This document shows, piece by piece, positions 4,483 to 52,806 of a stretch of DNA of 64,000 nt (position 1 is its first letter; each line of letters begins with the position of its first letter). The stretch is from Naegleria gruberi. Lineage: Eukaryota. The notes beneath the pieces were generated by a model, which was not told where the DNA came from, did not search any database, and saw only the letters and a list, made by a program, of their open reading frames with translations. The stretch is taken from the NCBI GenBank assembly GCA_000004985.1, contig GG738847.1. The stretch is one strand, 5' to 3'. A program made the translations under genes and the position numbers.

Positions 4483-4553
4483 GGGGGCGAGGGGGAATCG
4501 AACCCCCGGCCACAGCTTTGGAGGCTGCGATGTTACCATTACACCACCGCCCC
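4483..4553 (-). tRNA. tRNA-Trp (anticodon CCA)
   Basis: Minus-strand sequence GGGGCGGTGGTGTAATGGTAACATCGCAGCCTCCAAAGCTGTGGCCGGGGGTTCGATTCCCCCTCGCCCCC. Acceptor stem pairs with one G-U, anticodon loop CTCCAAA, T-arm GGGGG-TTCGATT-CCCCC. Confidence 0.85.
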
Positions 4554-8880: not shown

Positions 8881-10302
8881 TTACCATTCCAAAGATCTTT
8901 TGGATAGAGATTTCAAAGTTGGACTATTTTCAGAGTAGAATTGCGAATACCATCTTCTAAATTGACCTATTGGTCCATCAGTTCTCACCAACACTGGCTT
9001 TGGAAGATAGGTTTTGGTATTCCAAATTGGAATGTCTTGTTCCACAAAGGAGGTCATCAAGATTAAAAACCACTTGGCAAAGAATCTAGGAATATACCAA
9101 GGAACATAGAGAACATGTTCAACATGTTGATGAAGAGGGCCAACTGGAGTTACGGTCTGAACGAGATCAAACTTTCCTAAAATTGTAGAAAACTCAAACA
9201 TGACCAAACCAGGTCCATATTGACCTCCCTTTACATCCACAACACTGAATGGAATTTTCAACCTATCATTCATGGCAGTTGAAACGTGTTGAACTTGAAA
9301 GTAAGCCACATGGGAATCTTCCTTCTTTTCACCTTTTTGCCACTTGGCTCCCCAAATATTCCACACAAATCCAAAAGTATTTCTCATTTCTCTATGGACA
9401 ACATTTAAATGATTGGCATCTGGTCCATTCTCTGGAATTTCCTGAATATGACAATAGATGTGATGAGCAATCTTTCCATGTGTGAAGAGATTTTGTCTTA
9501 CTGATGGTGGTTGCCAATGAGGTTCACGACCCTCTGCATCAAACCACAAATAGACGTTATCATTTCTTTCAATAATTGTATAACTCTTGGTGTGGGCTTG
9601 TGATGGAATGCCATCTCTATGTTCACACTCTTCCACTTGTTCACAAGATTCAGCCAATTTTCCACTCTTGTTTTTTGCAATATCAAGAGTTGAATCTTGA
9701 ACAGATAGCTCACTTTTGAATTGACCATTCTTTTTCAAAATTGGCATTGGAAGTGGAGAATCACCAACGGAAACACATTTTCCCTCTCCATTGAATGACC
9801 AATGATGAAATGGACATGTCAAACATTCACCATTGACACTTCCCAATGACAGATTAGCTCCCAAATGAGTACAGTAAGCATCGATAGCATGAACTGTTTT
9901 GGAATGTTGAGCTCTATAGACAGCTAGTTCTAGACCTAACATGCTCTTGTAGATTACTTGTCCAGGGGAAAGATCCCATGAATTGCAGATTTTGAACCAT
10001 CCATTTGGATAAACTGGTGGAAAGTCACCAATTCTCTTTCTACTCTTGGAAGCCAAGAAGGAAGTTCTGGTGGATGGTTTCATTTCGGAAAGTTTAGGTT
10101 CAAGATCAATGAATCTATCAAGAGGATGAAAGAATGAAGAGTAAACTTCCGAAATCAAACTCTTTAATAATTTCCATACAATTGCAAGCACAATAATTGA
10201 AACTCCCAATATGCAAATGTTATTAAAGCTTGTAATATTTTCCACATCAATTGATTGATAAATTTTGGAAAGTGACTGATGGAAGAGAGTTTCGTCTTGC
10301 AT
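8881..10302 (-). CDS. Rieske [2Fe-2S] non-heme-iron oxygenase, Neverland/DAF-36-like (cholesterol 7-desaturase family), N-terminal membrane anchor
   Basis: Rieske motif CTHLGANLSLG..x..CLTCPFHHWSF (CxH-x17-CxxH). Mononuclear iron motif DANHLNVVHREMRN (D-x2-H-x4-H). TM segment ILGVSIIVLAIVWKLL. Confidence 0.75.
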   Translation of the reverse strand: MQDETLFHQSLSKIYQSIDVENITSFNNICILGVSIIVLAIVWKLLKSLISEVYSSFFHPLDRFIDLEPKLSEMKPSTRTSFLASKSRKRIGDFPPVYPNGWFKICNSWDLSPGQVIYKSMLGLELAVYRAQHSKTVHAIDAYCTHLGANLSLGSVNGECLTCPFHHWSFNGEGKCVSVGDSPLPMPILKKNGQFKSELSVQDSTLDIAKNKSGKLAESCEQVEECEHRDGIPSQAHTKSYTIIERNDNVYLWFDAEGREPHWQPPSVRQNLFTHGKIAHHIYCHIQEIPENGPDANHLNVVHREMRNTFGFVWNIWGAKWQKGEKKEDSHVAYFQVQHVSTAMNDRLKIPFSVVDVKGGQYGPGLVMFEFSTILGKFDLVQTVTPVGPLHQHVEHVLYVPWYIPRFFAKWFLILMTSFVEQDIPIWNTKTYLPKPVLVRTDGPIGQFRRWYSQFYSENSPTLKSLSKRSLEW

Positions 10303-10558
10303 TTTGTTTTTTTAATGTTTTTGAAAGCTTATATCCCTTCACTCGGCCATTGCTTTACAACGATAGGAAGTCCTACTTTACAATGTGTTGAGGAGTTACG
10401 ATAAGATCTATAAAAGGAACAGTAAAATCCTGTACATTACAATGAAAAATAATTAACTTCTGACCCCTCTTCATTGTTCCTTGAAATTCAACTTGATATT
10501 GAACTTTAACACTTGACAATATCAACTTCCAACTTCCCAAGCAAGCTCTACAAAAAAA

Positions 10559-11161
10559 ATGTCTCAAAACCTTCTCACGGCTGCCACTACCATGAACAAT
10601 CACGAAGAAGAGCTTGAAGTTCCAGGCTTTTCATGGATTATAGAATCGGAATTGGCTGGTATGAAATTTCCATCCCTTCCCGAACATTACAAAAATTTAA
10701 ATCATCATCACATTGGTTTGGTGATTTGTGTGAATGAGAGGGTAGCTTCCTTTGTTGAACAATTACCTCATTCAGAATATTTTAATTTAATTTCTAAAAA
10801 ATTACAAAAAATAGAAAATTGTGAAGAATTTACTTATAATGTTGGAAAATTGAATATTGCTCATTTTCCTATTAATGATTATGGAGTTCCTAATATGGAA
10901 TTAATGAATGAAATGATAAAATTGGTAGAATATGTGAGAAAGGTGGATTCGAACAGGGGAATTGTTGTGCATTGCATGGCTGGACTTTCTAGGACTGGAA
11001 TGATTCTGGCATGTTTGTTGGTGAGAGTATGGAAAATGACATTTGAGGAGTCAATCAAGTTGGTCAATCAGAAGAGAGGAAGAAATGGTAGAGGAGTAAT
11101 GACTAGCAAGCAAGAAGCATTTGTGGAAGATTTTTCAAAGACTATTCCTAATATTCAATAA
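10559..11161 (+). CDS. Dual-specificity protein phosphatase, DUSP23/VH1-like low-molecular-weight type (200 aa)
   Basis: aaaaaaaATG start. Catalytic CX5R loop VVHCMAGLSRTGMILACLLV. N-terminal FSWIIESELAGMKFP resembles DUSP23 (NFSWVLPGRLAG). Confidence 0.85.
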   Translation: MSQNLLTAATTMNNHEEELEVPGFSWIIESELAGMKFPSLPEHYKNLNHHHIGLVICVNERVASFVEQLPHSEYFNLISKKLQKIENCEEFTYNVGKLNIAHFPINDYGVPNMELMNEMIKLVEYVRKVDSNRGIVVHCMAGLSRTGMILACLLVRVWKMTFEESIKLVNQKRGRNGRGVMTSKQEAFVEDFSKTIPNIQ

Positions 11162-11245
11162 GATTACTATTTTTAAATACTATTTCGAATCTTACTAATT
11201 AAGAGCTAAAAATTTACTTCTTGAATGCGTCGACCGGGAATTGAA

Positions 11246-12029
11246 ATTTCCTTTTTTGGAATTCATTTAACTTTTAATTTTATGATGAAATTATGAATGT
11301 TTTATTTTAATATTATTCATGATGTGAAACATCATGTTGAATTCTGTTCATAATATTTAATTCATGATGTGAAACATCATGTTGAATTATTAACAAATGT
11401 TGTTCTTCAATTTTTAATTGAATGTTGTTCTTTCATTGAATGTTGGAAATATTGGAAAGTTGGAAATAAAAGTTGGAAGTTAGGTAACGGGTTATGGAAT
11501 TACCTAATGTGGAAATTGAATTCAATTTTGAAATTGAATTAATACAATGTTTTTTAAATTATTATTATTTAAATGTATTTCACACATTAATTTTGATAAT
11601 GTAATATTAAAGATATTGATAATTGGGTATAGGGAAACGGAATTTCCTAATTGGGAGTCATCACACAATAAATTAAATTTATTATTTATTCATTGATGAT
11701 GTTCACAAACTTTGAATTAACATATTACATGATGAATCAATTACAAAATTAACATCACTATTATTCTGGGGGCAAAATGAACATTAACCATCGGGTAACG
11801 GAAATTGACACATATACCACTTAATTAACAAATTGAATATTAACCATCGGGTAACGGATTTTAATACATGTATTAGTATGTTGATAATTGGTCGACGCAC
11901 AGAAATTTAAATAAACAGAATTAACAAGAATAAAAGCAAAATCCTACATAAGAGTTGGAGAACGGGAAATGAAATTCCCAAATTGAGAAACACAACATGC
12001 ACAATCACAATAATTCATACTATCAAAAT
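11246..12029. mobile_element. 784-bp non-coding repetitive insertion inside the tRNA-Gly T-loop, flanked by 8-bp target-site duplication (gaattgaa at 11238..11245 and 12030..12037); non-autonomous, no ORF
   Basis: Flanks reconstitute an intact tRNA when the insert plus one octamer copy is removed. Interior contains degenerate ~50-70 bp units carrying near-palindromic cores (ccgggaattgaaatttcc, gaacgggaaatgaaattccc, ggaaacggaatttcc, ggtaacgggttatggaattacc). Also a 20-bp direct repeat attaaccatcgggtaacgga at 11784 and 11841. Termini are attt...aaat. Confidence 0.6.
11315..11388. repeat. Two copies of a 29-bp direct repeat attcatgatgtgaaacatcatgttgaatt (11315..11343 and 11360..11388), each containing the hairpin catgatg-tgaaa-catcatg
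   Basis: Exact direct repeat read from sequence, period 45 bp, inside the insertion element. Followed by short tandem motifs tgaatgttgttct x2 and gttggaa(a)t x3. Confidence 0.8.
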
Positions 12030-12139
12030 GAATTGAACCCGGGTCACGGCGATGGCAACGCCGTATTCTACCACTAAACCATCGACGCTTCTTATTAAGG
12101 TACTAAGGCTCATCAAATTTTATTCAAAATGATGTTTTA

Positions 12140-13868: not shown

Positions 13869-15965
13869 TTAATATCTGCTAATAAAAAGCCATGCATTTG
13901 GTTCTTTACCAGTTATAACACAAACATCCCCAGACTCAATTTTAGGGAATCTATCCACAAGATGTTGGTTAGACAATTCTGAAAATTTTGAATATCCTCT
14001 AAATTCAGCATTTGTTTTCTTGTAAAAATCCTCTTCCACTTCATGAATCCTATCCCACAACTCTTCACTAATATGGATTGGAGCAACAACATGCCAGAAT
14101 GGCGAATTAGTAATTGTCTTGGCATTGTATTCCATTTGTTGCTTTTTTCTCATCTTTGGATCTGTGCTTTGTAAGTTTTGTTTGAATTTTTCGTTAAAGG
14201 TTGAAATTAATTCTTCCATAGATTGAGCTTTTACAATTTGCACTCTATTCAAAATTGATTCCTTCAAATGTGAATCTTCCTTATCTAGTAGAGAACTGAT
14301 CATTTCGAAATTGACTTCATTGGCAGGAATTGTAGATTTCTTCAAACTATTTCTTCCCTTGATTGTAATGGTACTTCCTTCCAACTCTTGTTTTCCAATT
14401 GATACTACAAGTGAAACTCCTTTACTCTCCCACTGATAGAACTTTTCCACATTCTTGGTTGCATATCTCATATCGGCATGAACTCTAAAACCAAATGATT
14501 TGAGTTTCTTCTCCATGCTCCTCACATTCTCATACAATATATTGGTATCACAAGATTTACTGAGCATTGGAACAATAACTATTTGATACTTGTTCATGGT
14601 AGAGTGCAGTCTCAACCCCTTGTCATCTGAGCATGAAGCTGCACAAGCTCCAAGAATTCTAGAAGATATATTGCCACAAGTTTGAAAAATTGGCTGAACA
14701 AATATTTGAGATCAATACATGTTGTGAAAAATGTGAATAACTTACAGAAGTGAAATTATCTTGTTTCAATCTATACACGATATTGTACACATCTGAAAAT
14801 ATCCTTCCATAATACTTTCATTAAATGAAACAAATTAAAGTAGAATTCACTTGAAACAACTTACATTAGTTCTTGCAATATTTACACTAGTATTTACAAA
14901 AGGTAGACTCACATCAAACACAATGGCTTGTTTACAATGTGAGAATGCCTTCCAAGGGAAGAGATGATAGCTAATACCATTCCACAAATTACAAACATTC
15001 AATAGAACTGGAAGGTAAACTCTATTCCACATTATGTCATTCATATAAGAAAGAGCATTCTCCTCTGATTCGTGACAGGTATGAATTTCATGCTGATATT
15101 GCTCCTTATTTCCATAAAACAATGGCAATTGAATTCCCTCATCACTCATTACTTGTTGAAAATTCTTTGTCTTACAAATCACCTTATATGGTAACTGAAT
15201 ATAACTCCTTATAATATTCTTAAGGTATGGGAAGATAGCCCACTCACTATTTGGTTTCAAATAAACATTTGGATAATTAAACTTCATTTCATAATCCTCA
15301 TAAATATATCCTCTACTAAGTGAAAACAATTTAGGATCCATCACATGTTGAAATGCATTGACATTGAATAATGAATTTGTTTCCTTAACCTCTTCCATTA
15401 TACTATCAACTTCAACTTGTGATGATTCATTCCACTCTGGTTCTTCATAATCATCAAATCTAACCAATGGATCAGCACCCAATTCCATCATGGCCGAATT
15501 ATTATTATTACTATTATTCATCAATTGTTGTTGATATTCTTCACCATCTTCCTGTTGTTGACTTCTTGGATTTGGATTACTATTTGATAAGGGTTGATCT
15601 CTCAAACTAACCAGCATGGGTAAATCAATCCTCTCCAATTTCTTCTCTTCTATGGCTCCGATCATTGTCTTTTGTGAGGAGGTTATTCCTTCATCCTTAT
15701 TAGAGGAGGAATCTTGATCGGAAGAGGTTTTCAGAATTTCATCAATTAATTTGGCCTTTTCCAAAGCTTCCTCCTCATCAAATCTTTCATCCACTTTGCC
15801 AAATAATTTATCCATCAATTCAAGTGCCTGTTCCTTCCAAATGATGTGTCCATCGAGTGAGTATCGTTCATCCACAAAATTCAAAATCATTGGAGAGGTA
15901 CTCCACTCCTGAAGCCAAGCTTGAAATTGTGTTAGCTCGACGGTGGTTATTCCTTGAGAAGACAT
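13869..15965 (-). CDS. Prolyl-tRNA synthetase-like protein, eukaryote/archaeal-type with C-terminal domain. Three exons: 14865..15965, 14746..14792, 13869..14693
   Basis: Class II aaRS blocks. Motif-1 region SYIQLPYKVICKTKNF ~ ProRS SYKQLP..Q.TKF. Motif-3 region PIFQTCGNISSRILGACAAS. Anticodon-binding domain YQIVIVPM..KKLKSFGFRVHADMRY..KGVSLVVSIGKQELE. C-terminal extension like eukaryotic ProRS. Introns 14793..14864 (GTAAGT..TTTTCAG) and 14694..14745 (GTAAGT..TTGTTCAG). The exon-1 donor and phase of the 47-nt micro-exon are uncertain. Confidence 0.6.
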
Positions 15966-16258: not shown

Positions 16259-17158
16259 ATGTCATCAGCAATCCTCTCCCGTTTAGAAACCTGTGTAACT
16301 CGCTTGCAAAAAATCAATCCAAAATCATCTTCTGGTGGTAGTTCTTCATCATCAAGCGATGCTGCTCCTCAAGTTGTTGCCTATGAAGAATATTACAATG
16401 ATAATATTGTTCCATTGTTGGAAACCATGACAAAGATTGGAGGTGAAACTGCTCAAATGGTTAGTTTCTTCTTTTCAATGTTCAATATTTAATCTTCATC
16501 ACATTTTCATGTTATTATTCGAATGTTAATATACTATTGTATTATTATTTTGTAAATATTATAGAAAGATGCTGTTGAACAAGGATTCAAGGGATTAGGT
16601 AAAGTCATTGCTTTGGCTTCCACTCATCGTAAACCATCAAGTAATTATGACGAAACTATTGGTCAAATTCTTCAAAACAGTGGAATTGGACAAGCTTTGC
16701 AAACAACTGCTGATTTCCGTTTCAAGAATTTCAAATCAACTCAAGTTAATCATTTATATGCCATTGAAGAAGGTTTGAAGGTTGTTTTGTGGCCAACTAC
16801 CAATACTACTATTTCCTATGTTAAGGTATGTTTTAATTATTTTAACATCAAATATCTGATATTTGGTTTTCATTCATCACAAATTTACTTTTCACTTTGG
16901 TCTATTCTATCTATTTATGTGAATGATTTTGTTGAATATTGGATTTATATCTGAAAAATATATTAGGAAATGGTTAATGCAGTTTCATTCTATACAATGA
17001 AGGTTTTGACCTCAACAAAGACTAATAGTGATGCTGAAGTTCACAAGGCCTATGTCAACCAATGGAAAACATTGATTGAAGCCATGTCTGTTTATGTGAA
17101 GGAATTCCACATGACTGGATTGACTTTTAATCCAAAGGCTGCTCAAGAAGCTAAATAA
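16259..17158 (+). CDS. Cyclase-associated protein (CAP/Srv2) N-terminal helical-folded-domain homolog, short form (217 aa). Exons 16259..16459, 16565..16825, 16967..17158
   Basis: MSSAILSRLETCVTRL ~ CAP N-terminus (MADMQNLVERLERAVGRLE). AVSFYTMKVL..VHKAYVNQWKTLIEAMSVYVKEFHMTGLTFNP ~ CAP1 [39 protein letters not shown]. Introns 16460..16564 (GTTAGT..ATAG) and 16826..16966 (GTATGT..TTAG). In-frame TAA right after ..KAAQEAK. Confidence 0.7.
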
Positions 17159-17185: not shown

Positions 17186-18067
17186 TCAATTATGACTTCC
17201 CCAAAAGAAAGTATTTCTCATCTTTTGTAATTTTTCTAATGCACCACTACATGTTCTTCCAATTTCTGTTTGTGTATCATTAATTCGTCTTAAAATAGAG
17301 TACATGTTTAGTATTTCCTCCGTTATATCACCAATAACTTTCATGTCTACATATAATTGATCGAACCACTTTCTGGCCTTTTCCTTGTTGATATTATTTT
17401 CTTCATCGTTCTTTAATATTGAAGTCATGTAAATGGATGTCAGGGACACCAGATAGGGTGGATATTTTAGAACCACCTCCGAATAGAAGCTATCATTCAC
17501 AATATTCCAACAAATCTGATACAGAGATTTATCAAGTTCTGCATCCTTTACATAGGTCATGAGGGAAGTATGAGAGTGAAAAACTGTTAAATTAAAATTC
17601 AATTGTTCCATTAAATATAATTCACATTCCAAAATTTGTTGTAGTGGGTAAGGAAAAAGTGTGGTAACATCCTTTGTATCATAATTTTGTGATGATGGTG
17701 TTTCCTTCCCCAAACATATTTGATGTATATTCTTAGCATTGAGTGGACATTCTTCGATTTTACTTGCCAACAACAATGCTGCAGCTCCCAGCAAGGCAGG
17801 ATCACAATCGGAAATACTATTCTGACAATAAAATCGTTTAAAATACACCATTGCTGTTGAAACTACTCTCAGATGGCCACCCACTTTCTTTCCAATATCT
17901 TTTAAATTTTTAATAGTACTCATCAAAATTAATTGTTTTTCCAAGGGAGAAAATTGTGCATCGGGATCGGATGTATCAAGCTGCTGAAGGGATGTTTGTG
18001 GTTGATTCGAAGAAGCTTGCTGCTGTTGTTTTTTAGATAATTGTGTTTGTATCCATTTGCTAATCAT
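17186..18067 (-). CDS. Cyclin C (CDK8/Mediator kinase-module cyclin)
   Basis: Cyclin box LRVVSTAMVYFKRFYCQNSISDCDPALLGAAALLLASKIEE. FPYPLQQILECELYLMEQLNFNLTVFH ~ human cyclin C FPYRMNHILECEFYLLELMDCCLIVYH. ATG at 18067 (MISKWIQTQ); ORF-track start upstream is non-ATG. Confidence 0.85.
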   Translation of the reverse strand: MISKWIQTQLSKKQQQQASSNQPQTSLQQLDTSDPDAQFSPLEKQLILMSTIKNLKDIGKKVGGHLRVVSTAMVYFKRFYCQNSISDCDPALLGAAALLLASKIEECPLNAKNIHQICLGKETPSSQNYDTKDVTTLFPYPLQQILECELYLMEQLNFNLTVFHSHTSLMTYVKDAELDKSLYQICWNIVNDSFYSEVVLKYPPYLVSLTSIYMTSILKNDEENNINKEKARKWFDQLYVDMKVIGDITEEILNMYSILRRINDTQTEIGRTCSGALEKLQKMRNTFFWGSHN

Positions 18068-18748
18068 GTCATTATTTCCAATAGTAATAATAATAATATT
18101 AATAATACAATAATGTTGTTTGTTATGACGATGATGGCCAACAAAATATTCAACACAATAGTAGAACATCAACAATACATCACACACGAGAAAATAAAAA
18201 CACTTCTCCTCCGATAATGTAATTTTTGATTTCTACTTACTATTGTGATGAAACCCAATAATTGTCCATTTTTTTGTATTTTTAGAATTATTAATAAATA
18301 GTATTATCATTTGTAAATTCTTATTGTTAACGTTAACAAGATTTGTTGTTATTGATCAATGATCATGAAATTGTTGATTTATTCCGAATACTACTACTCT
18401 ATCTTTTTGAATTTTTCATTATTGAATGGTCAAAAGTTAGGTGATAAAAACTTGAAATTAATGGTTAATGATGGTGATTATTTATTCTTACCTAAAGAAA
18501 ATGGTTTGATTTCCTGTGTTTCGGAAACAGCTGTAGAAAATTTGGCAGTCTTGGGCTTGATCATATATCCTCTTAATGATTCCCTTAATGAATTTTTGGT
18601 TAATTTCTACAATTTTTTCTATGAGATTTGCAAATTGTATGAATGCTAATTCAATTGGAGTTTGTTCTCTAACGAAGAAATTGACCTTCTTATGATTACC
18701 ATACATATCTATTAATGTTTGATTCTTCAAAAGCATTTGAAAAAAAAA

Positions 18749-20086
18749 ATGAAGAGAAAATATGAAGAAGATTTGCCACAAGAACAACATGATGAAGAAG
18801 TTTCCGTGTTGGCAACCCAAGAGGAGGAAGGAGTAATTTCATTACAAACACAATCATTGGAATCGACGTCGGAAGAGTTTCCAATTGTTGCCACTCAAGA
18901 GTTTGAGCAAAGTGCTCAACAACAATCTTTGAATACTCAGGATAGTTCGAGCCAAGTAGGAGATGTTATTAGTGGATTACAAACACAATCGGAAGTCGTT
19001 GAGAAGACTAGTAAGAAGTGGAAGTTTGAAAATAATTCAACAAGCAAGGATTCTAGCTTTGGAAATTATAAGAATTATTATTCATACAGGTACAATGATG
19101 TGAATGCTGCCAAACCAAAGGAAGATAGGCACTTGATTGATCCAAGATTGGAAATAATTTCAAATTGTTTAACGAATTACTTCAAAAATTCCACGGAGTC
19201 ACCAATTAACCTCAATTGTTTAGATATTGGATGTAATCAAGGGTTATTTTCAATGCAAATGGCTGACTTTTATGAATCCCAACTTGGTGTAAAGGCTGAG
19301 AAAGAAATTTCCTTGAAAAATATGAATGCAATCGATATTGATTCAGTACTAATTAGAAAAGCAAAGGATCATTTAATTAATTTGAAGAGATTCAATGCTA
19401 CAGAGAAGGATCAAGATGAGGACGACAAACTTGGCATGAGTGTTCATACTTATGTGGCTTTACATCGAGCAGAGACTCCAGAGGAAAAGGAAGAGAAAAT
19501 TTTCATCTGGAGAAATAATAGAAAATTATTGAAAGAACATTTGGACAATTCTGTGAATATTTGCCACAAATCCTACATGAATACTCTAATCGATAAGGTA
19601 CATTTCAAGGTGCAGAATTTCGTAGAAGAAATTGTAGAAACAAAGATTTCTGACTTAACAATTGAAAAGATGCAGGAAATTATTTCAAAATCAACAAACA
19701 AGACTCAGGCCACATTTAATATCATTTCTTGCTTGAGTGTAACAAAATGGGTTCACCTTAATTATGGAGATAATTCTGTAAAATTCCTATTCCACAAAAT
19801 TCACAAGCTACTCAAGCCTGGAGGAATATTCATTTTAGAACCTCAACACTGGAAAAGCTACACAAAAAAGAGAGAACTCAACTCTAAAATTCAGGAAAAC
19901 TTTAAACACATCAAATTCAGACCAACAAGCTTTCACGATTATTTGTTGAAGGAAGTTGGCTTTACTTCTAGTGAAACCTTTTTCATTGATGAAAATTCCA
20001 CTGAGACACCAACAGGAAACAAGGAAAATGAAAAAAAGAAGAAGAAGGGATTTAAGAAACGTCCAATAGTTTTTTACTATCGTTGA
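18749..20086 (+). CDS. Bin3-type SAM-dependent RNA methyltransferase (MePCE/BCDIN3 family)
   Basis: SAM-binding motif LDIGCNQGLFSMQMA. Bin3 C-terminal block IISCLSVTKWVHLNYGDNSVKFLFHKIHKLLKPGGIFILEPQHWKSY. ATG at 18749 after a 9-A run; ORF-track start 18719 is TTG. Confidence 0.8.
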   Translation: MKRKYEEDLPQEQHDEEVSVLATQEEEGVISLQTQSLESTSEEFPIVATQEFEQSAQQQSLNTQDSSSQVGDVISGLQTQSEVVEKTSKKWKFENNSTSKDSSFGNYKNYYSYRYNDVNAAKPKEDRHLIDPRLEIISNCLTNYFKNSTESPINLNCLDIGCNQGLFSMQMADFYESQLGVKAEKEISLKNMNAIDIDSVLIRKAKDHLINLKRFNATEKDQDEDDKLGMSVHTYVALHRAETPEEKEEKIFIWRNNRKLLKEHLDNSVNICHKSYMNTLIDKVHFKVQNFVEEIVETKISDLTIEKMQEIISKSTNKTQATFNIISCLSVTKWVHLNYGDNSVKFLFHKIHKLLKPGGIFILEPQHWKSYTKKRELNSKIQENFKHIKFRPTSFHDYLLKEVGFTSSETFFIDENSTETPTGNKENEKKKKKGFKKRPIVFYYR

Positions 20087-20349: not shown

Positions 20350-20422
20350 GGGGATGTAGCTCACATGGTAGAGCGCTTCTTTAGCATGGAAGAGGTACGG
20401 GGATCGATACCCCGCATCTCCA
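20350..20422 (+). tRNA. tRNA-Ala (anticodon AGC)
   Basis: GGGGATGTAGCTCACATGGTAGAGCGCTTCTTTAGCATGGAAGAGGTACGGGGATCGATACCCCGCATCTCCA. G3-U70 pair in acceptor stem, anticodon loop TTAGCAT. Confidence 0.85.
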
Positions 20423-20439
20423 CTCAGTATTTTTAAAGT

Positions 20440-48456: not shown

Positions 48457-48528
48457 TCGGGTGTGGTATAGTGGTAGCATTCCAGACTGTCACTCTGGCG
48501 ACCCGGGTTCAATTCCCGGCACTCGAGT
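48457..48528 (+). tRNA. tRNA-Asp (anticodon GTC)
   Basis: TCGGGTGTGGTATAGTGGTAGCATTCCAGACTGTCACTCTGGCGACCCGGGTTCAATTCCCGGCACTCGAG. Anticodon arm CCAGA-CTGTCAC-TCTGG, T-arm CCGGG-TTCAATT-CCCGG. Close to canonical eukaryotic tRNA-Asp. Confidence 0.85.
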
Positions 48529-51471: not shown

Positions 51472-51521
51472 NNNNNNNNNNNNNNNNNNNNNNNNNNNNN
51501 NNNNNNNNNNNNNNNNNNNNN
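51472..51521. other. 50-N scaffold gap
   Basis: Exactly 50 n characters. Confidence 0.99.
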
Positions 51522-52806
51522 GACAGTAAAATCCTGTACATTACAATGAAAAATAATTAACTTCTGACCCCTCTTCATTGTTCCTTGAAATTCAACTTGA
51601 TATTGAACTTTAACACTTGACAATATCAACTTCCAACTTCCCAAGCAAGCTCTACAAAAAAAATGTCTCAAAACCTTCTCACGGCTGCCACTACCATGAA
51701 CAATCACGAAGAAGAGCTTGAAGTTCCAGGCTTTTCATGGATTATAGAATCGGAATTGGCTGGTATGAAATTTCCATCCCTTCCCGAACATTACAAAAAT
51801 TTAAATCATCATCACATTGGTTTGGTGATTTGTGTGAATGAGAGGGTAGCTTCCTTTGTTGAACAATTACCTCATTCAGAATATTTTAATTTAATTTCTA
51901 AAAAATTACAAAAAATAGAAAATTGTGAAGAATTTACTTATAATGTTGGAAAATTGAATATTGCTCATTTTCCTATTAATGATTATGGAGTTCCTAATAT
52001 GGAATTAATGAATGAAATGATAAAATTGGTAGAATATGTGAGAAAGGTGGATTCGAACAGGGGAATTGTTGTGCATTGCATGGCTGGACTTTCTAGGACT
52101 GGAATGATTCTGGCATGTTTGTTGGTGAGAGTATGGAAAATGACATTTGAGGAGTCAATCAAGTTGGTCAATCAGAAGAGAGGAAGAAATGGTAGAGGAG
52201 TAATGACTAGCAAGCAAGAAGCATTTGTGGAAGATTTTTCAAAGACTATTCCTAATATTCAATAAGATTACTATTTTTAAATACTATTTCGAATCTTACT
52301 AATTAAGAGCTAAAAATTTACTTCTTGAATGCGTCGACCGGGAATTGAAATTTCCTTTTTTGGAATTCATTTAACTTTTAATTTTATGATGAAATTATGA
52401 ATGTTTTATTTTAATATTATTCATGATGTGAAACATCATGTTGAATTCTGTTCATAATATTTAATTCATGATGTGAAACATCATGTTGAATTATTAACAA
52501 ATGTTGTTCTTCAATTTTTAATTGAATGTTGTTCTTTCATTGAATGTTGGAAATATTGGAAAGTTGGAAATAAAAGTTGGAAGTTAGGTAACGGGTTATG
52601 GAATTACCTAATGTGGAAATTGAATTCAATTTTGAAATTGAATTAATACAATGTTTTTTAAATTATTATTATTTAAATGTATTTCACACATTAATTTTGA
52701 TAATGTAATATTAAAGATATTGATAATTGGGTATAGGGAAACGGAATTTCCTAATTGGGAGTCATCACACAATAAATTAAATTTATTATTTATTCATTGA
52801 TGATGT
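51522..52806. repeat. Exact duplicate of 10418..11706 (offset 41104), bounded by N gaps
   Basis: Includes the DUSP23-like CDS and the left junction of the insertion element. Identity appears 100% over 1285 bp. The ORF track shows identical proteins at 10559..11161 and 51663..52265. Confidence 0.9.
51663..52265 (+). CDS. Second copy of the DUSP23-like phosphatase CDS (identical to 10559..11161)
   Basis: Identical 200-aa translation; lies within the gap-bounded duplicate block. Confidence 0.6.
   Translation: MSQNLLTAATTMNNHEEELEVPGFSWIIESELAGMKFPSLPEHYKNLNHHHIGLVICVNERVASFVEQLPHSEYFNLISKKLQKIENCEEFTYNVGKLNIAHFPINDYGVPNMELMNEMIKLVEYVRKVDSNRGIVVHCMAGLSRTGMILACLLVRVWKMTFEESIKLVNQKRGRNGRGVMTSKQEAFVEDFSKTIPNIQ

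What the first reader, a model, noticed from the sequence alone, without database searches (positions are those of the whole stretch)
13869..15965. Eukaryote-type ProRS-like protein with apparently degenerate motif 2 and a low-complexity N-terminal extension
The anticodon-binding domain, motif-3 region (GNISSRILGA) and C-terminal domain are clearly ProRS-like, and the motif-1 region aligns (SYIQLPYKVICKTKNF). Where class II motif 2 normally has its invariant arginines (fRxE..R.REF), the translation reads KNFQQVMSDEGIQLPLFYGNKEQYQHEIHTCH, with no Arg. This suggests a non-catalytic ProRS paralog or pseudoenzyme. Frame-shifting micro-introns may also have been missed: a 47-nt micro-exon at 14746..14792 already complicates the model.
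Basis: inference. Interest (0 to 1): 0.5.

Follow-up and report, generated by a model that had tools for sequence, protein, structure and literature searches.

The report
Catalytically dead prolyl-tRNA synthetase paralog
This is an intact, evolutionarily conserved Naegleria gene for a protein that keeps the whole shape of the enzyme that loads proline onto tRNA but has lost the residues needed for that chemistry, so it is a repurposed "pseudo-synthetase" whose function has not been determined.

Summary
The gene is real: minus strand, 15965..13869, three exons, 664 aa. It encodes a full-length archaeal/eukaryal-type ProRS homologue (PDB ProRS E=1.6e-23; ortholog model matches ProRS 1nj1, TM 0.89). 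The class II motif 2 arginines are absent. There is no Arg anywhere in aa 256-300, and the other two frames there are full of stops. Only about 40 of 118 positions that are ≥95% conserved in 105 true ProRS are kept, and Pfam no longer detects the catalytic core. [quoted passage not shown]

Orthologs with the same degenerate motif exist in N. fowleri, N. lovaniensis and an environmental relative. They are under purifying selection (dN/dS 0.15 overall, 0.10 in the dead core). N. fowleri also has a separate canonical ProRS (PDB 6NAB). An exhaustive search of 1.84 billion proteins found the paralog only in this lineage.

- Exon 2 is 69 nt (14746..14814), not 47.
- "SYIQLPYK…" is the motif 2 strand, not motif 1.
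- The N-terminus is ProRS-homologous with two internal insertions, not an extension.

Function is inferred, not shown: a non-catalytic dimer that binds tRNA or a partner protein.

The parts
13869..15965 (-). Whole gene: ATG 15965, TAA stop 13869-13871; 664-aa ProRS-like protein
   Evidence: phmmer against PDB ProRS chains 1.6e-23. Orthologs P0002 and P0003 are 51% and 49% identical over 99-100% of the length.
14865..15965 (-). Exon 1 (1101 nt, aa 1-367), ends …ARTN before donor GTAAGT
   Evidence: The same exon boundary (…AHTN / …AHSN before GTAAGT or GTAGGT) is found in L001, L003 and L007.
14815..14864 (-). Intron 1, 50 nt, GTAAGT…AAAG
   Evidence: Required for the frame and for a gap-free alignment to ProRS.
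14746..14814 (-). Exon 2, 69 nt (aa 368-390, YYGRIFSDVYNIVYRLKQDNFTS).
   Evidence: A 69-nt exon 2 is present in N. fowleri (L001 11199-11267), N. lovaniensis (L003 11204-11272) and L007.
14694..14745 (-). Intron 2, 52 nt, GTAAGT…TTCAG
13869..14693 (-). Exon 3 (aa 391-664 plus stop): motif 3, anticodon-binding domain, C-terminal domain
15801..15965 (-). aa 1-55: segment homologous to the ProRS N-terminus (LTQFQAWL…DERYSLDG…), not an extension
   Evidence: alignment (W17, D32, G39 invariant with true ProRS). domain 1 alignment of the ortholog to 1nj1.
15651..15800 (-). aa 56-105: insertion 1, charged. In the ortholog model it prolongs the motif 1 helix
   Evidence: Gap in all canonical ProRS. 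Helices H42-77 and H88-99 have pLDDT about 85-95 in the P0002 model.
15582..15650 (-). aa 106-128: motif-1-like segment EEKKLERIDLPMLVSLRDQPLSN (P116 = motif 1 proline). It is the most conserved stretch of the paralogs
   Evidence: P116 invariant; 83% identity between the window protein and N. fowleri, 100% between N. fowleri and N. lovaniensis, dN = 0.
15351..15581 (-). aa 129-205: insertion 2, acidic and low-complexity, predicted disordered. It replaces the canonical EKxHxEGF active-site lid region
   Evidence: pLDDT below 50 for ortholog residues 120-219; 27-29% identity, dN/dS 0.4-0.6.
15438..15473 (-). aa 165-176 DPLVRFDDYEEP: short acidic-aromatic motif DP[LF]xxFDD[YF]x[ED]P, conserved in all four paralogs inside the disordered insert
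   Evidence: paralog alignment. Its role as a docking motif is inference only.
15072..15194 (-). aa 258-298: degenerate motif 2 (LPYKVICKTKNFQQVMSDEGIQLPLFYGNKEQYQHEIHTCH). fRxE becomes FQQV. The loop is acidic and 3-4 residues longer. RxRE(F) becomes GNKE(Q). E293 and H295 are retained
14646..14684 (-). aa 394-406 QTCGNISSRILGA: motif 3 with the invariant Arg (R402) retained
   Evidence: (R402 invariant).
14313..14585 (-). aa 427-517: class IIa anticodon-binding domain (HGTP_anticodon)
   Evidence: Pfam 3.9e-11, 43.4 bits against a cutoff of 21. 9 of 15 near-invariant ProRS positions are kept. pLDDT is above 90 in the ortholog model.
13872..14288 (-). aa 526-664: linker helix plus ProRS C-terminal domain, ending in the conserved terminal Tyr (…ISRY). 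Zn-cysteines are mostly lost and there are lineage-specific insertions
   Evidence: ProRS-C_1 14.3 bits, below the 31.5 cutoff. Y664 and C648 are invariant. The fold is matched end to end.

Best explanation
The locus encodes a ProRS-derived pseudoenzyme specific to the Naegleria lineage.

Shown:
- It keeps the complete E-type ProRS architecture: class II catalytic fold, class IIa anticodon-binding domain, and a C-terminal domain ending in Tyr.
- It has lost the motif 2 arginines, the adenine-stacking Phe, and most ATP- and proline-contacting residues. The basic motif 2 loop that approaches the tRNA acceptor end is replaced by a longer, acidic one.
- It is kept intact under purifying selection in at least four taxa.
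- A normal ProRS exists in the same genus.

Inferred:
- It cannot form prolyl-adenylate or charge tRNA.
- The motif 1 dimer-interface segment is its most conserved part, and the anticodon-binding domain keeps its signature residues and a normal positive charge. It therefore most likely acts as a dimeric, non-catalytic binder of tRNA (probably tRNAPro-like anticodon arms) and/or of a protein partner.
- The two lineage-specific insertions, especially the conserved DP[LF]xxFDD[YF]x[ED]P motif in the disordered acidic insert, may serve as the docking or output element.
- The remodelled but highly conserved former active site (E241, E293, H295 and R402 retained) may still hold a small ligand.
For: Architecture and homology:
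- phmmer against PDB ProRS chains gives 1.6e-23.
- The AF2 model of ortholog P0002, built with a 109-sequence alignment, has pLDDT 79 and pTM 0.80.
- Foldseek's top hits are all ProRS: 1nj1 with target-normalised TM 0.89, and the N. fowleri enzyme 6NAB/6UYH at 0.78-0.80.

Active-site loss:
- Pfam finds HGTP_anticodon only. There is no tRNA-synt_2b hit in the window protein or in P0002, whereas canonical N. fowleri ProRS P0165 hits all three ProRS domains.
- Of 118 columns that are ≥95% conserved in 105 canonical ProRS, 38 are kept, plus 3 more in exon 2.
- In N. fowleri ProRS numbering, R139 becomes K, T141 N, R172 is lost, R183 G, R185 K, F187 Q, W189 Q, Q257 N, T260 R and H262 N. E143, E191, H193 and motif 3 R296 are kept.
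- No alternative frame or intron can restore motif 2.

Conservation:
- Orthologs in N. fowleri, N. lovaniensis and environmental contig L007 share FQQV/FTQV…LPLFYGxKE.
- The three-exon structure with a 69-nt exon 2 is the same in all of them.
- Between N. fowleri and N. lovaniensis, dN/dS is 0.15 overall, 0.10 in the dead core and 0 in motif 1.
- A contig 98.7% identical at the DNA level has no frameshift. Its dN/dS is 0.26 overall and 0.035 in exon 3.

A canonical enzyme is present elsewhere:
- P0165 = 6NAB/6UYH binds proline, AMP and halofuginone as an α2 homodimer.
- JGI sample 3300002220 carries both a canonical ProRS contig (L004) and a paralog contig (L007).

Other:
- The net charge of the anticodon-binding domain (+1 to +6) is within the range of true ProRS, whose mean is +2.5.
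- E-type ProRS recognise tRNAPro mainly through the anticodon, that is, through this domain (PMC12152171).
Against: - There is no expression, localisation, binding or activity data of any kind. tRNA binding, dimerisation and the docking-motif role are inferences from conserved residues.
- The structural model is of the 51%-identical N. fowleri ortholog, not of the window protein.
- Its alignment is dominated by true ProRS, which biases the model toward the ProRS fold.
- Between the two near-identical strains, the N-terminal two-thirds show fairly relaxed evolution (11 nonsynonymous to 4 synonymous changes, dN/dS 0.63). The counts are small.
- The canonical ProRS of the window's own genome could not be inspected.
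Confidence: 0.72

Rival explanations
1. SLIMP-like obligate partner. The dead paralog heterodimerises with the canonical ProRS through the conserved motif 1 interface and modulates or stabilises it, as SLIMP does with insect mitochondrial SerRS2. This is a specific sub-mechanism of the pseudoenzyme reading.
For: - The motif-1-like segment is the most conserved part of the protein.
- There is precedent for active-site ablation plus heterodimerisation in SLIMP/SerRS2 (PMC10570016, PMC9437257).
Against: - Canonical N. fowleri ProRS has all its domains. It crystallises as a self-sufficient α2 homodimer with proline/AMP bound (PMC7990177; Pfam), so nothing is visibly missing for a partner to supply.
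- The paralog is only about 17-25% identical to it and does not branch with it, so interface compatibility is doubtful.
Confidence: 0.1
2. Neofunctionalised pocket. The remodelled but strongly conserved former active site binds a new small ligand, or catalyses a chemistry that does not need adenylation. The protein would then be a sensor or enzyme rather than an RNA-binding scaffold.
For: - The dead core is the most constrained large region between N. fowleri and N. lovaniensis (dN/dS 0.10).
- Many paralog-specific residues are invariant (SRGYIYExYEMK, LKPNSEW, GIQLPLFYG, EIHTCHxSE).
- E241, E293, H295 and R402 of the original pocket are retained.
Against: - No ligand can be proposed from sequence.
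- High conservation is equally expected for a protein-protein or RNA interface.
- In the N. gruberi-type strain pair, this half of the protein is the less constrained one.
Confidence: 0.12
3. It is still a working prolyl-tRNA synthetase that uses non-canonical residues, for example for an organelle.
For: [quoted passage not shown]
Against: - The class II motif 2 Arg, essential for adenylate formation (established knowledge of class II aaRS), is absent in all four taxa. So are the second loop Arg and the adenine-stacking Phe.
- About 70% of near-invariant catalytic-domain positions are changed.
- Pfam cannot detect the core domain.
- The N-terminus has no basic presequence (direct reading).
Confidence: 0.03
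4. It is a decaying pseudogene, or an artefact of gene modelling in which missed exons would restore motif 2.
For: - Extreme divergence from ProRS, on a long branch.
- dN/dS is 0.63 in exons 1-2 between near-identical strains.
Against: - The ORFs are intact and the intron positions identical in four taxa and a fifth strain.
- dN/dS is 0.15 between species.
- Indels between the strains fall only in non-coding sequence.
- The frame is continuous and collinear with ProRS through motif 2, and the other frames are closed.
Confidence: 0.03

Closest known systems
Canonical E-type (archaeal/eukaryal) prolyl-tRNA synthetase, e.g. M. thermautotrophicus 1NJ1, Giardia 3IAL, N. fowleri 6NAB/6UYH
   Same: Same three-domain architecture and fold: class II core, HGTP anticodon-binding domain, and a C-terminal domain ending in Tyr. 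The motif 1 Pro, the motif 3 Arg and several pocket residues are retained.
   Different: - The motif 2 arginines and most ATP- and proline-contacting residues are lost.
- The motif 2 loop is acidic and longer.
- There are two large insertions around motif 1.
- The Zn-cysteines are mostly lost.
- The Pfam core domain is undetectable.
- Identity is only 17-30%.
[quoted passage not shown]
   Same: A full-length paralog of a class II aaRS with an ablated active site, retained under selection alongside an active enzyme. It keeps its tRNA-binding module (PMC9437257, PMC10570016).
   Different: - It derives from SerRS, not ProRS.
- It is mitochondrial and an obligate heterodimer partner of a SerRS2 that has itself lost a domain.
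- Here the canonical ProRS is complete and homodimeric, no targeting peptide is visible, and no partner is known.
HisRS-like domain of GCN2; HisZ
   Same: Class IIa synthetase-derived modules that no longer aminoacylate and act by binding: GCN2 binds uncharged tRNA, HisZ binds histidine and HisG. The GCN2 description is my own knowledge; HisZ is described in PMC9437257.
   Different: - GCN2's module is fused to a kinase, and HisZ lacks the anticodon-binding domain.
- The Naegleria protein stands alone, keeps the anticodon-binding and C-terminal domains, and derives from ProRS.
Duplicated but active ProRS paralogs (ProRSx of Streptomyces; BtProRS2 of Bacillus thuringiensis)
   Same: Second ProRS-family genes that coexist with a housekeeping ProRS (PMC9437257; PMC11229370, abstract).
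   Different: Those are catalytically active with an intact motif 2. They are the only ProRS paralogs listed in the 2022 review. No dead ProRS paralog is listed there.

Membership tests
Prolyl-tRNA synthetase (class IIa aaRS, E-type architecture) | Class II catalytic fold, then anticodon-binding domain, then C-terminal domain, in ProRS order | tested here: met
   The AF2 model of ortholog P0002 has pTM 0.80. Foldseek's top 50 hits are all ProRS, with target-normalised TM up to 0.90. phmmer gives 1.6e-23. The model is of the ortholog, not of the window protein itself.
Prolyl-tRNA synthetase (class IIa aaRS, E-type architecture) | Sequence signature of the class II core (Pfam tRNA-synt_2b) | tested here: not met
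   No hit at E≤1 for the window protein or at E≤0.01 for P0002. Canonical N. fowleri P0165 scores 82.6 bits.
Prolyl-tRNA synthetase (class IIa aaRS, E-type architecture) | Motif 2: invariant Arg of fRxE and the loop-closing RxRE(F), with the adenine-stacking Phe | tested here: not met
   FQQV…GNKEQ. There is no Arg anywhere in aa 256-300. This holds in all four paralogs and in both the phmmer and the MAFFT registers.
Prolyl-tRNA synthetase (class IIa aaRS, E-type architecture) | Motif 3 with invariant Arg | tested here: met
   QTCGNISSRILGA: R402 and G405 are retained.
Prolyl-tRNA synthetase (class IIa aaRS, E-type architecture) | Proline- and ATP-pocket residues (RPTSE, WxEGH, QggTSHxLG) | tested here: not met
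   These become KPNSE, QHEIH and NIARTNYYG. Only E241, E293 and H295 are kept. About 30% of near-invariant catalytic-domain columns are retained. The functional assignment of these residues is from my knowledge of human ProRS structures (4HVC).
Prolyl-tRNA synthetase (class IIa aaRS, E-type architecture) | HGTP anticodon-binding domain | tested here: met
   Pfam PF03129, 3.9e-11, 43.4 bits against a cutoff of 21.
Prolyl-tRNA synthetase (class IIa aaRS, E-type architecture) | ProRS C-terminal domain with conserved terminal Tyr | tested here: inconclusive
   PF09180 scores 14.3 bits, below the 31.5 cutoff. The terminal Tyr and one Cys are invariant, and the domain is modelled and matched structurally.
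Prolyl-tRNA synthetase (class IIa aaRS, E-type architecture) | Prolyl-adenylate formation and tRNAPro charging | not testable with these tools
   Needs a biochemical assay.
aaRS-derived pseudoenzyme (SLIMP / HisZ / GCN2-HisRS-like kind) | Descends from an aaRS, and the catalytic residues are ablated | tested here: met
aaRS-derived pseudoenzyme (SLIMP / HisZ / GCN2-HisRS-like kind) | Maintained by purifying selection alongside an active enzyme | tested here: met
   dN/dS is 0.15, and 0.10 in the core. The gene is intact in five sequences. Canonical ProRS P0165 is present in N. fowleri. The canonical gene of the window's own genome was not examined.
aaRS-derived pseudoenzyme (SLIMP / HisZ / GCN2-HisRS-like kind) | Acts by binding (tRNA, ligand or partner protein) without aminoacylation | not testable with these tools
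   Only indirect evidence: the anticodon-binding-domain signature residues and charge are retained.
SLIMP specifically | Mitochondrial, and an obligate heterodimer with a domain-depleted active paralog | tested here: inconclusive
   The N-terminus (MSSQGITTVELTQFQAWLQEW) has no basic presequence (direct reading). Canonical N. fowleri ProRS is domain-complete and homodimeric. Heterodimerisation itself was not tested.
GCN2 HisRS-like domain | The pseudo-synthetase module is fused to a protein kinase | tested here: not met
   This is a stand-alone 664-aa protein, and Pfam finds no kinase domain.

The most novel reading that the evidence does not exclude
Naegleria has turned a ProRS into a dedicated non-catalytic regulator. 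It could be a sensor or sequestering factor for uncharged tRNAPro (or proline) whose output runs through the conserved acidic DP[LF]xxFDD[YF]x[ED]P docking motif. That would make it the first described regulatory pseudo-synthetase derived from ProRS. It apparently descends from an archaeal-like ProRS lineage rather than from the host's own cytosolic enzyme.
Probability: 0.25. Interest if true: 0.55.

Novelty: new member of a known kind. Interest (0 to 1): 0.4.

Why it matters
Dead paralogs of aminoacyl-tRNA synthetases (SLIMP, HisZ, the HisRS-like domain of GCN2) have repeatedly turned out to be regulators that reuse tRNA or amino-acid recognition. The review I consulted lists only an active ProRS paralog and no catalytically dead one. 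Full-text searches for ProRS-like or ProRS-paralog terms found nothing relevant.

This protein is conserved across Naegleria, including the pathogen N. fowleri, and was found nowhere else among 1.84 billion representative proteins. It is therefore a lineage-specific protein with a well-defined fold and a testable hypothesis: it binds tRNA but does not charge it.

It also matters practically. ProRS is being pursued as a drug target in N. fowleri, and annotation pipelines should not count this gene as a second ProRS. At present it is labelled only 'hypothetical / anticodon-binding domain-containing protein'.

Tried and rejected
I rejected it because it shifts the frame into a TGA. An alternative GTTGTT donor (my model B) was also rejected in favour of the AAAG acceptor at 14815-14816, because only that model aligns gap-free to ProRS and matches the orthologs.
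- Hidden micro-introns restoring motif 2. Rejected.
- A second ProRS in the window. tblastn with canonical N. fowleri and archaeal ProRS finds only this gene.
- Spliced window protein as input. I worked around this with ortholog P0002 plus the exon translations.
- First AF2 run. With an 8-sequence alignment it gave an unusable core (pLDDT 55), so I repeated it with 109 sequences.
- Exact-sequence look-up of the exon 3 ORF. Nothing on record, so the source genome was not identified by a tool. 'N. gruberi-type' is inferred from 33% GC and about 52% identity to the N. fowleri and N. lovaniensis orthologs.
- Giant-virus origin. I considered it because Naegleria hosts klosneuviruses that encode aaRS. 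Hokovirus ProRS is a fold match at only 13% identity, no closer than cellular ProRS, so the idea has no support.
- Recent duplication of the host cytosolic ProRS. Not supported. In the NJ tree the paralogs form a 100%-supported long branch away from the Naegleria/Willaertia canonical clade and nearest to archaeal-like ProRS (P0011, P0014, P0017, Barthelona, Paramoeba). P0002 scores 108 bits against 1nj1 but 81 bits against 6nab. Long-branch artefacts make the placement unreliable.
- Synteny. The neighbours differ between the window, N. fowleri and N. lovaniensis, so they give no functional clue.
- AFDB fold search. The library was unavailable.
Full report
**The sequence and the gene model.** The window is AT-rich eukaryotic DNA, about 33% GC. 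Exon 1 (15965..14865) ends …ARTN in front of a consensus GTAAGT donor.

Using the acceptor AG at 14815-14816 gives a 50-nt intron and a 69-nt exon 2 (14814..14746). A 52-nt intron follows, and exon 3 starts at 14693. The resulting 664-aa protein aligns to M. jannaschii ProRS without a gap across the exon junctions (…TNYYGRIFSDVYNIVYRLKQDNFTSPIFQTCGNISSRILGA… against …[40 protein letters not shown]…). The annotated orthologs in N. fowleri and N. lovaniensis have exactly the same three-exon structure with a 69-nt exon 2. So does an environmental relative that I spliced by hand.

**What the protein is.** phmmer against all PDB chains returns only prolyl-tRNA synthetases, from 1.6e-23 for M. jannaschii 1NJ8 to 2e-8 for human EPRS. 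The match covers aa 234-560. Pfam sees the class IIa anticodon-binding domain (3.9e-11) and a sub-threshold ProRS C-terminal domain. It does not see the class II core domain, although canonical N. fowleri ProRS hits all three.

With a 109-sequence alignment the model reaches pLDDT 79 and pTM 0.80. Foldseek against the PDB returns ProRS structures end to end: 1NJ1/1NJ2 with target-normalised TM 0.89-0.90, and Giardia, Plasmodium, Toxoplasma and N. fowleri ProRS at 0.78-0.85. The fold and domain order of an E-type ProRS are therefore retained.

**The N-terminus.** It is not an appended extension. Residues 1-55 (LTQFQAWL…DERYSLDG…) align with the ProRS N-terminus (FxxWY…DxRYPxxG). The extra length comes from two insertions:
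- aa 56-105, modelled as a prolongation of the motif 1 helix.
- aa 129-205, acidic, low-complexity and predicted disordered. It sits where true ProRS have the EKxHxEGF lid over the active site.

Between them lies a motif-1-like segment, KKLERIDLPMLVSLRDQPL, which contains the invariant motif 1 proline (P116).

**The active site.** I aligned the paralogs with 105 canonical ProRS. Of the 118 columns that are at least 95% conserved in the canonical enzymes, the window protein keeps 38, plus three that fall in exon 2. By domain the retention is roughly 30% in the catalytic domain, 60% in the anticodon-binding domain and 36% in the C-terminal part.

In N. fowleri ProRS numbering the changes are:
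- RPTSE becomes KPNSE.
- The motif 2 R172 and E174 of VVRWE are replaced (FQQV in the phmmer register, MSDE in the MAFFT register).
- R183, R185 and F187 of FIRSREF become G, K and Q.
- W189 becomes Q.
- Q257, T260 and H262 of QGGTSHHLG become N, R and N.

E143, E191, H193 and the motif 3 arginine (R402 of the window protein) are retained. The segment aa 256-300 contains no arginine at all, so no change of register can rescue motif 2. The motif 2 loop is three to four residues longer and acidic (SDEGIQL) where eukaryotic ProRS have KHPQ-type basic loops (PMC12152171). The coding frame is open and collinear with ProRS across 14990..15320, and the other two frames carry 9 and 16 stops. From established knowledge of class II synthetases, loss of the motif 2 arginine and the adenine-stacking phenylalanine is incompatible with aminoacyl-adenylate formation.

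**Is it a live gene?** A homology search found full-length orthologs in N. fowleri (FDP41_012020, 51% identity) and N. lovaniensis (C9374_012015, 49%). Both are annotated only as hypothetical or 'anticodon-binding domain-containing' proteins. It also found a metagenomic contig carrying the gene at 97% protein identity.

That contig is 98.7% identical at the DNA level, and its only two indels lie outside the coding sequence. There are 11 synonymous and 12 nonsynonymous differences (dN/dS 0.26). Constraint is much stronger on exon 3 (0.035) than on exons 1-2 (0.63; Fisher p=0.009, small counts).

Between N. fowleri and N. lovaniensis, dN/dS is 0.15 overall. It is 0.10 for the degenerate core, 0.14 for the anticodon-binding domain, 0 for the motif-1-like segment and 0.3-0.4 for the insertions. 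The degenerate motif 2 itself is nearly invariant among the four paralogs (NFQQV[ML]xD[ED]GIQLPLFYG[NS]KE…EIHTCH[ED]SE; HFTQV in L007). This is a protein under selection, not a decaying copy.

**Distribution and the canonical enzyme.** I ran an exhaustive HMMER search of 1.84 billion cluster representatives with a paralog profile. It found only five paralog clusters: N. fowleri, the near-identical strain, and three ORF fragments from metagenomes. Scores then drop to ordinary ProRS at 139 bits and below.

Two of the fragments lie on one 7.7-kb contig (L007) from JGI sample 3300002220. The same sample also yields a contig with a canonical ProRS that is 85% identical to the N. fowleri enzyme (L004).

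Using the part of PDB 6NAB recovered from an alignment, I retrieved the canonical N. fowleri ProRS (P0165, FDP41_002698, 100% identity), an environmental Naegleria-like one (P0166) and Willaertia magna's (P0167). All have the full Pfam domain set. The N. fowleri enzyme has been crystallised as an α2 homodimer with proline/AMP and with halofuginone/AMPPNP (PMC7990177).

So the genus has a normal ProRS in addition to this paralog. I could not inspect the rest of the window's own genome, and the window holds no second ProRS. No Willaertia paralog appeared as a representative. This suggests, but does not prove, a Naegleria-restricted family.

**Origin.** In a bootstrapped NJ tree the four paralogs form a 100%-supported clade on a very long branch. 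That branch does not attach to the Naegleria/Willaertia canonical ProRS. Its nearest neighbours are archaeal-like ProRS, including sequences from Barthelona and Paramoeba.

Two further observations point the same way. The ortholog scores higher against M. thermautotrophicus ProRS (108 bits) than against N. fowleri ProRS (81 bits). And the paralogs share the C-terminal AE[FV]RG[YW] motif with that archaeal-like group. Long-branch attraction cannot be excluded, so the donor lineage is unresolved. A giant-virus source is not supported, because Hokovirus ProRS is only 13% identical.

**How it most likely works.** Shown: the ProRS fold is kept, the chemistry is lost, and the gene is conserved. The rest is inference.
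- The motif 1 segment forms the dimer interface in class II synthetases. It is the best-conserved part of the protein, which suggests a dimer.
- The anticodon-binding domain keeps its signature residues (R460, D464, K474, W478, E479, G482, R504) and a net charge in the normal range.
- E-type ProRS recognise tRNAPro chiefly through the anticodon (PMC12152171).
- A dimer that binds tRNAPro-like anticodon arms without charging them is therefore the most economical model.
- The acidic, lengthened motif 2 loop would keep the acceptor end out of the former active site.
- The disordered acidic insert carries one short motif conserved in all four taxa, DP[LF]xxFDD[YF]x[ED]P (window aa 165-176). This is the kind of element that docks a partner protein.

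A SLIMP-like obligate heterodimer with canonical ProRS is possible. It is made less likely by the completeness and homodimeric crystal form of the canonical enzyme. A new ligand-binding role for the conserved remodelled pocket cannot be excluded.

**Comparison with what is known.** The closest functional analogues are aaRS-derived pseudoenzymes: SLIMP (SerRS-derived, active site ablated, tRNA-binding, heterodimeric; PMC10570016, PMC9437257), HisZ, and the HisRS-like domain of GCN2. The 2022 review of aaRS duplications lists only the active ProRSx as a ProRS paralog. Full-text searches for ProRS-like or ProRS-paralog terms found nothing relevant. I therefore class this as a new, uncharacterised member of a known kind. 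It is of moderate interest: it is not surprising in principle, but it is cleanly defined, lineage-specific, present in a human pathogen, and directly testable.

Noticed in passing
window 51523..52806 and 10419..11702 (N gap 51472..51521): The last 1284 real bases of the window, directly after a 50-N gap, are 100% identical to 10419..11702. That stretch holds the dual-specificity phosphatase gene and a 26-nt tandem repeat. It looks like a redundant small contig scaffolded on, meaning an assembly artefact, or else a very recent duplication.
   Followed up: partly
window 4483..4553(-), 12018..12089(-), 20350..20423(+), 48457..48527(+): There are four dispersed tRNA genes: Trp-CCA, Gly-GCC, Ala-AGC and Asp-GTC. 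The tRNA-Gly was called by ARAGORN only and did not reach Rfam's gathering score. None is a tRNAPro.
   Followed up: no
window 15438..15473 (aa 165-176 of the ProRS-like protein): A short acidic-aromatic motif, DP[LF]xxFDD[YF]x[ED]P, is conserved in all four paralogs inside an otherwise unconserved, predicted-disordered insert. It is a candidate docking motif, with no known match tested.
   Followed up: partly
window 16259..~17160 (+): A cyclase-associated protein (CAP) gene lies head-to-head with the ProRS-like gene, about 290 bp between the start codons. It has a CAP_N hit of 5.6e-10 on the 16970..17155 exon. This neighbourhood is not shared by N. fowleri or N. lovaniensis.
   Followed up: partly
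window 8881..10302(-), 10559..11161(+), 17186..18187(-), 18719..20086(+): The neighbouring genes are a Rieske/KshA_C-type oxygenase, a dual-specificity phosphatase, a cyclin, and a Bin3/MePCE-type RNA methyltransferase. None has an evident link to the ProRS-like gene.
   Followed up: no
P0024 (Logan contig; not in the window): This is another AT-rich ProRS-like protein from an unidentified organism. RPTSE is replaced by KTNNDIS, but the motif 2 Arg is kept, and the tRNA-synt_2b domain is still detectable. It may be an independent case of ProRS degeneration.
   Followed up: no
L007 (JGI 3300002220, 7741 nt) and L001 (N. fowleri): In both the environmental relative and N. fowleri, the gene immediately downstream of the paralog, tail to tail, gives faint PPR-repeat hits. 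This is not seen in N. lovaniensis or in the window, so it is probably coincidental.
   Followed up: no
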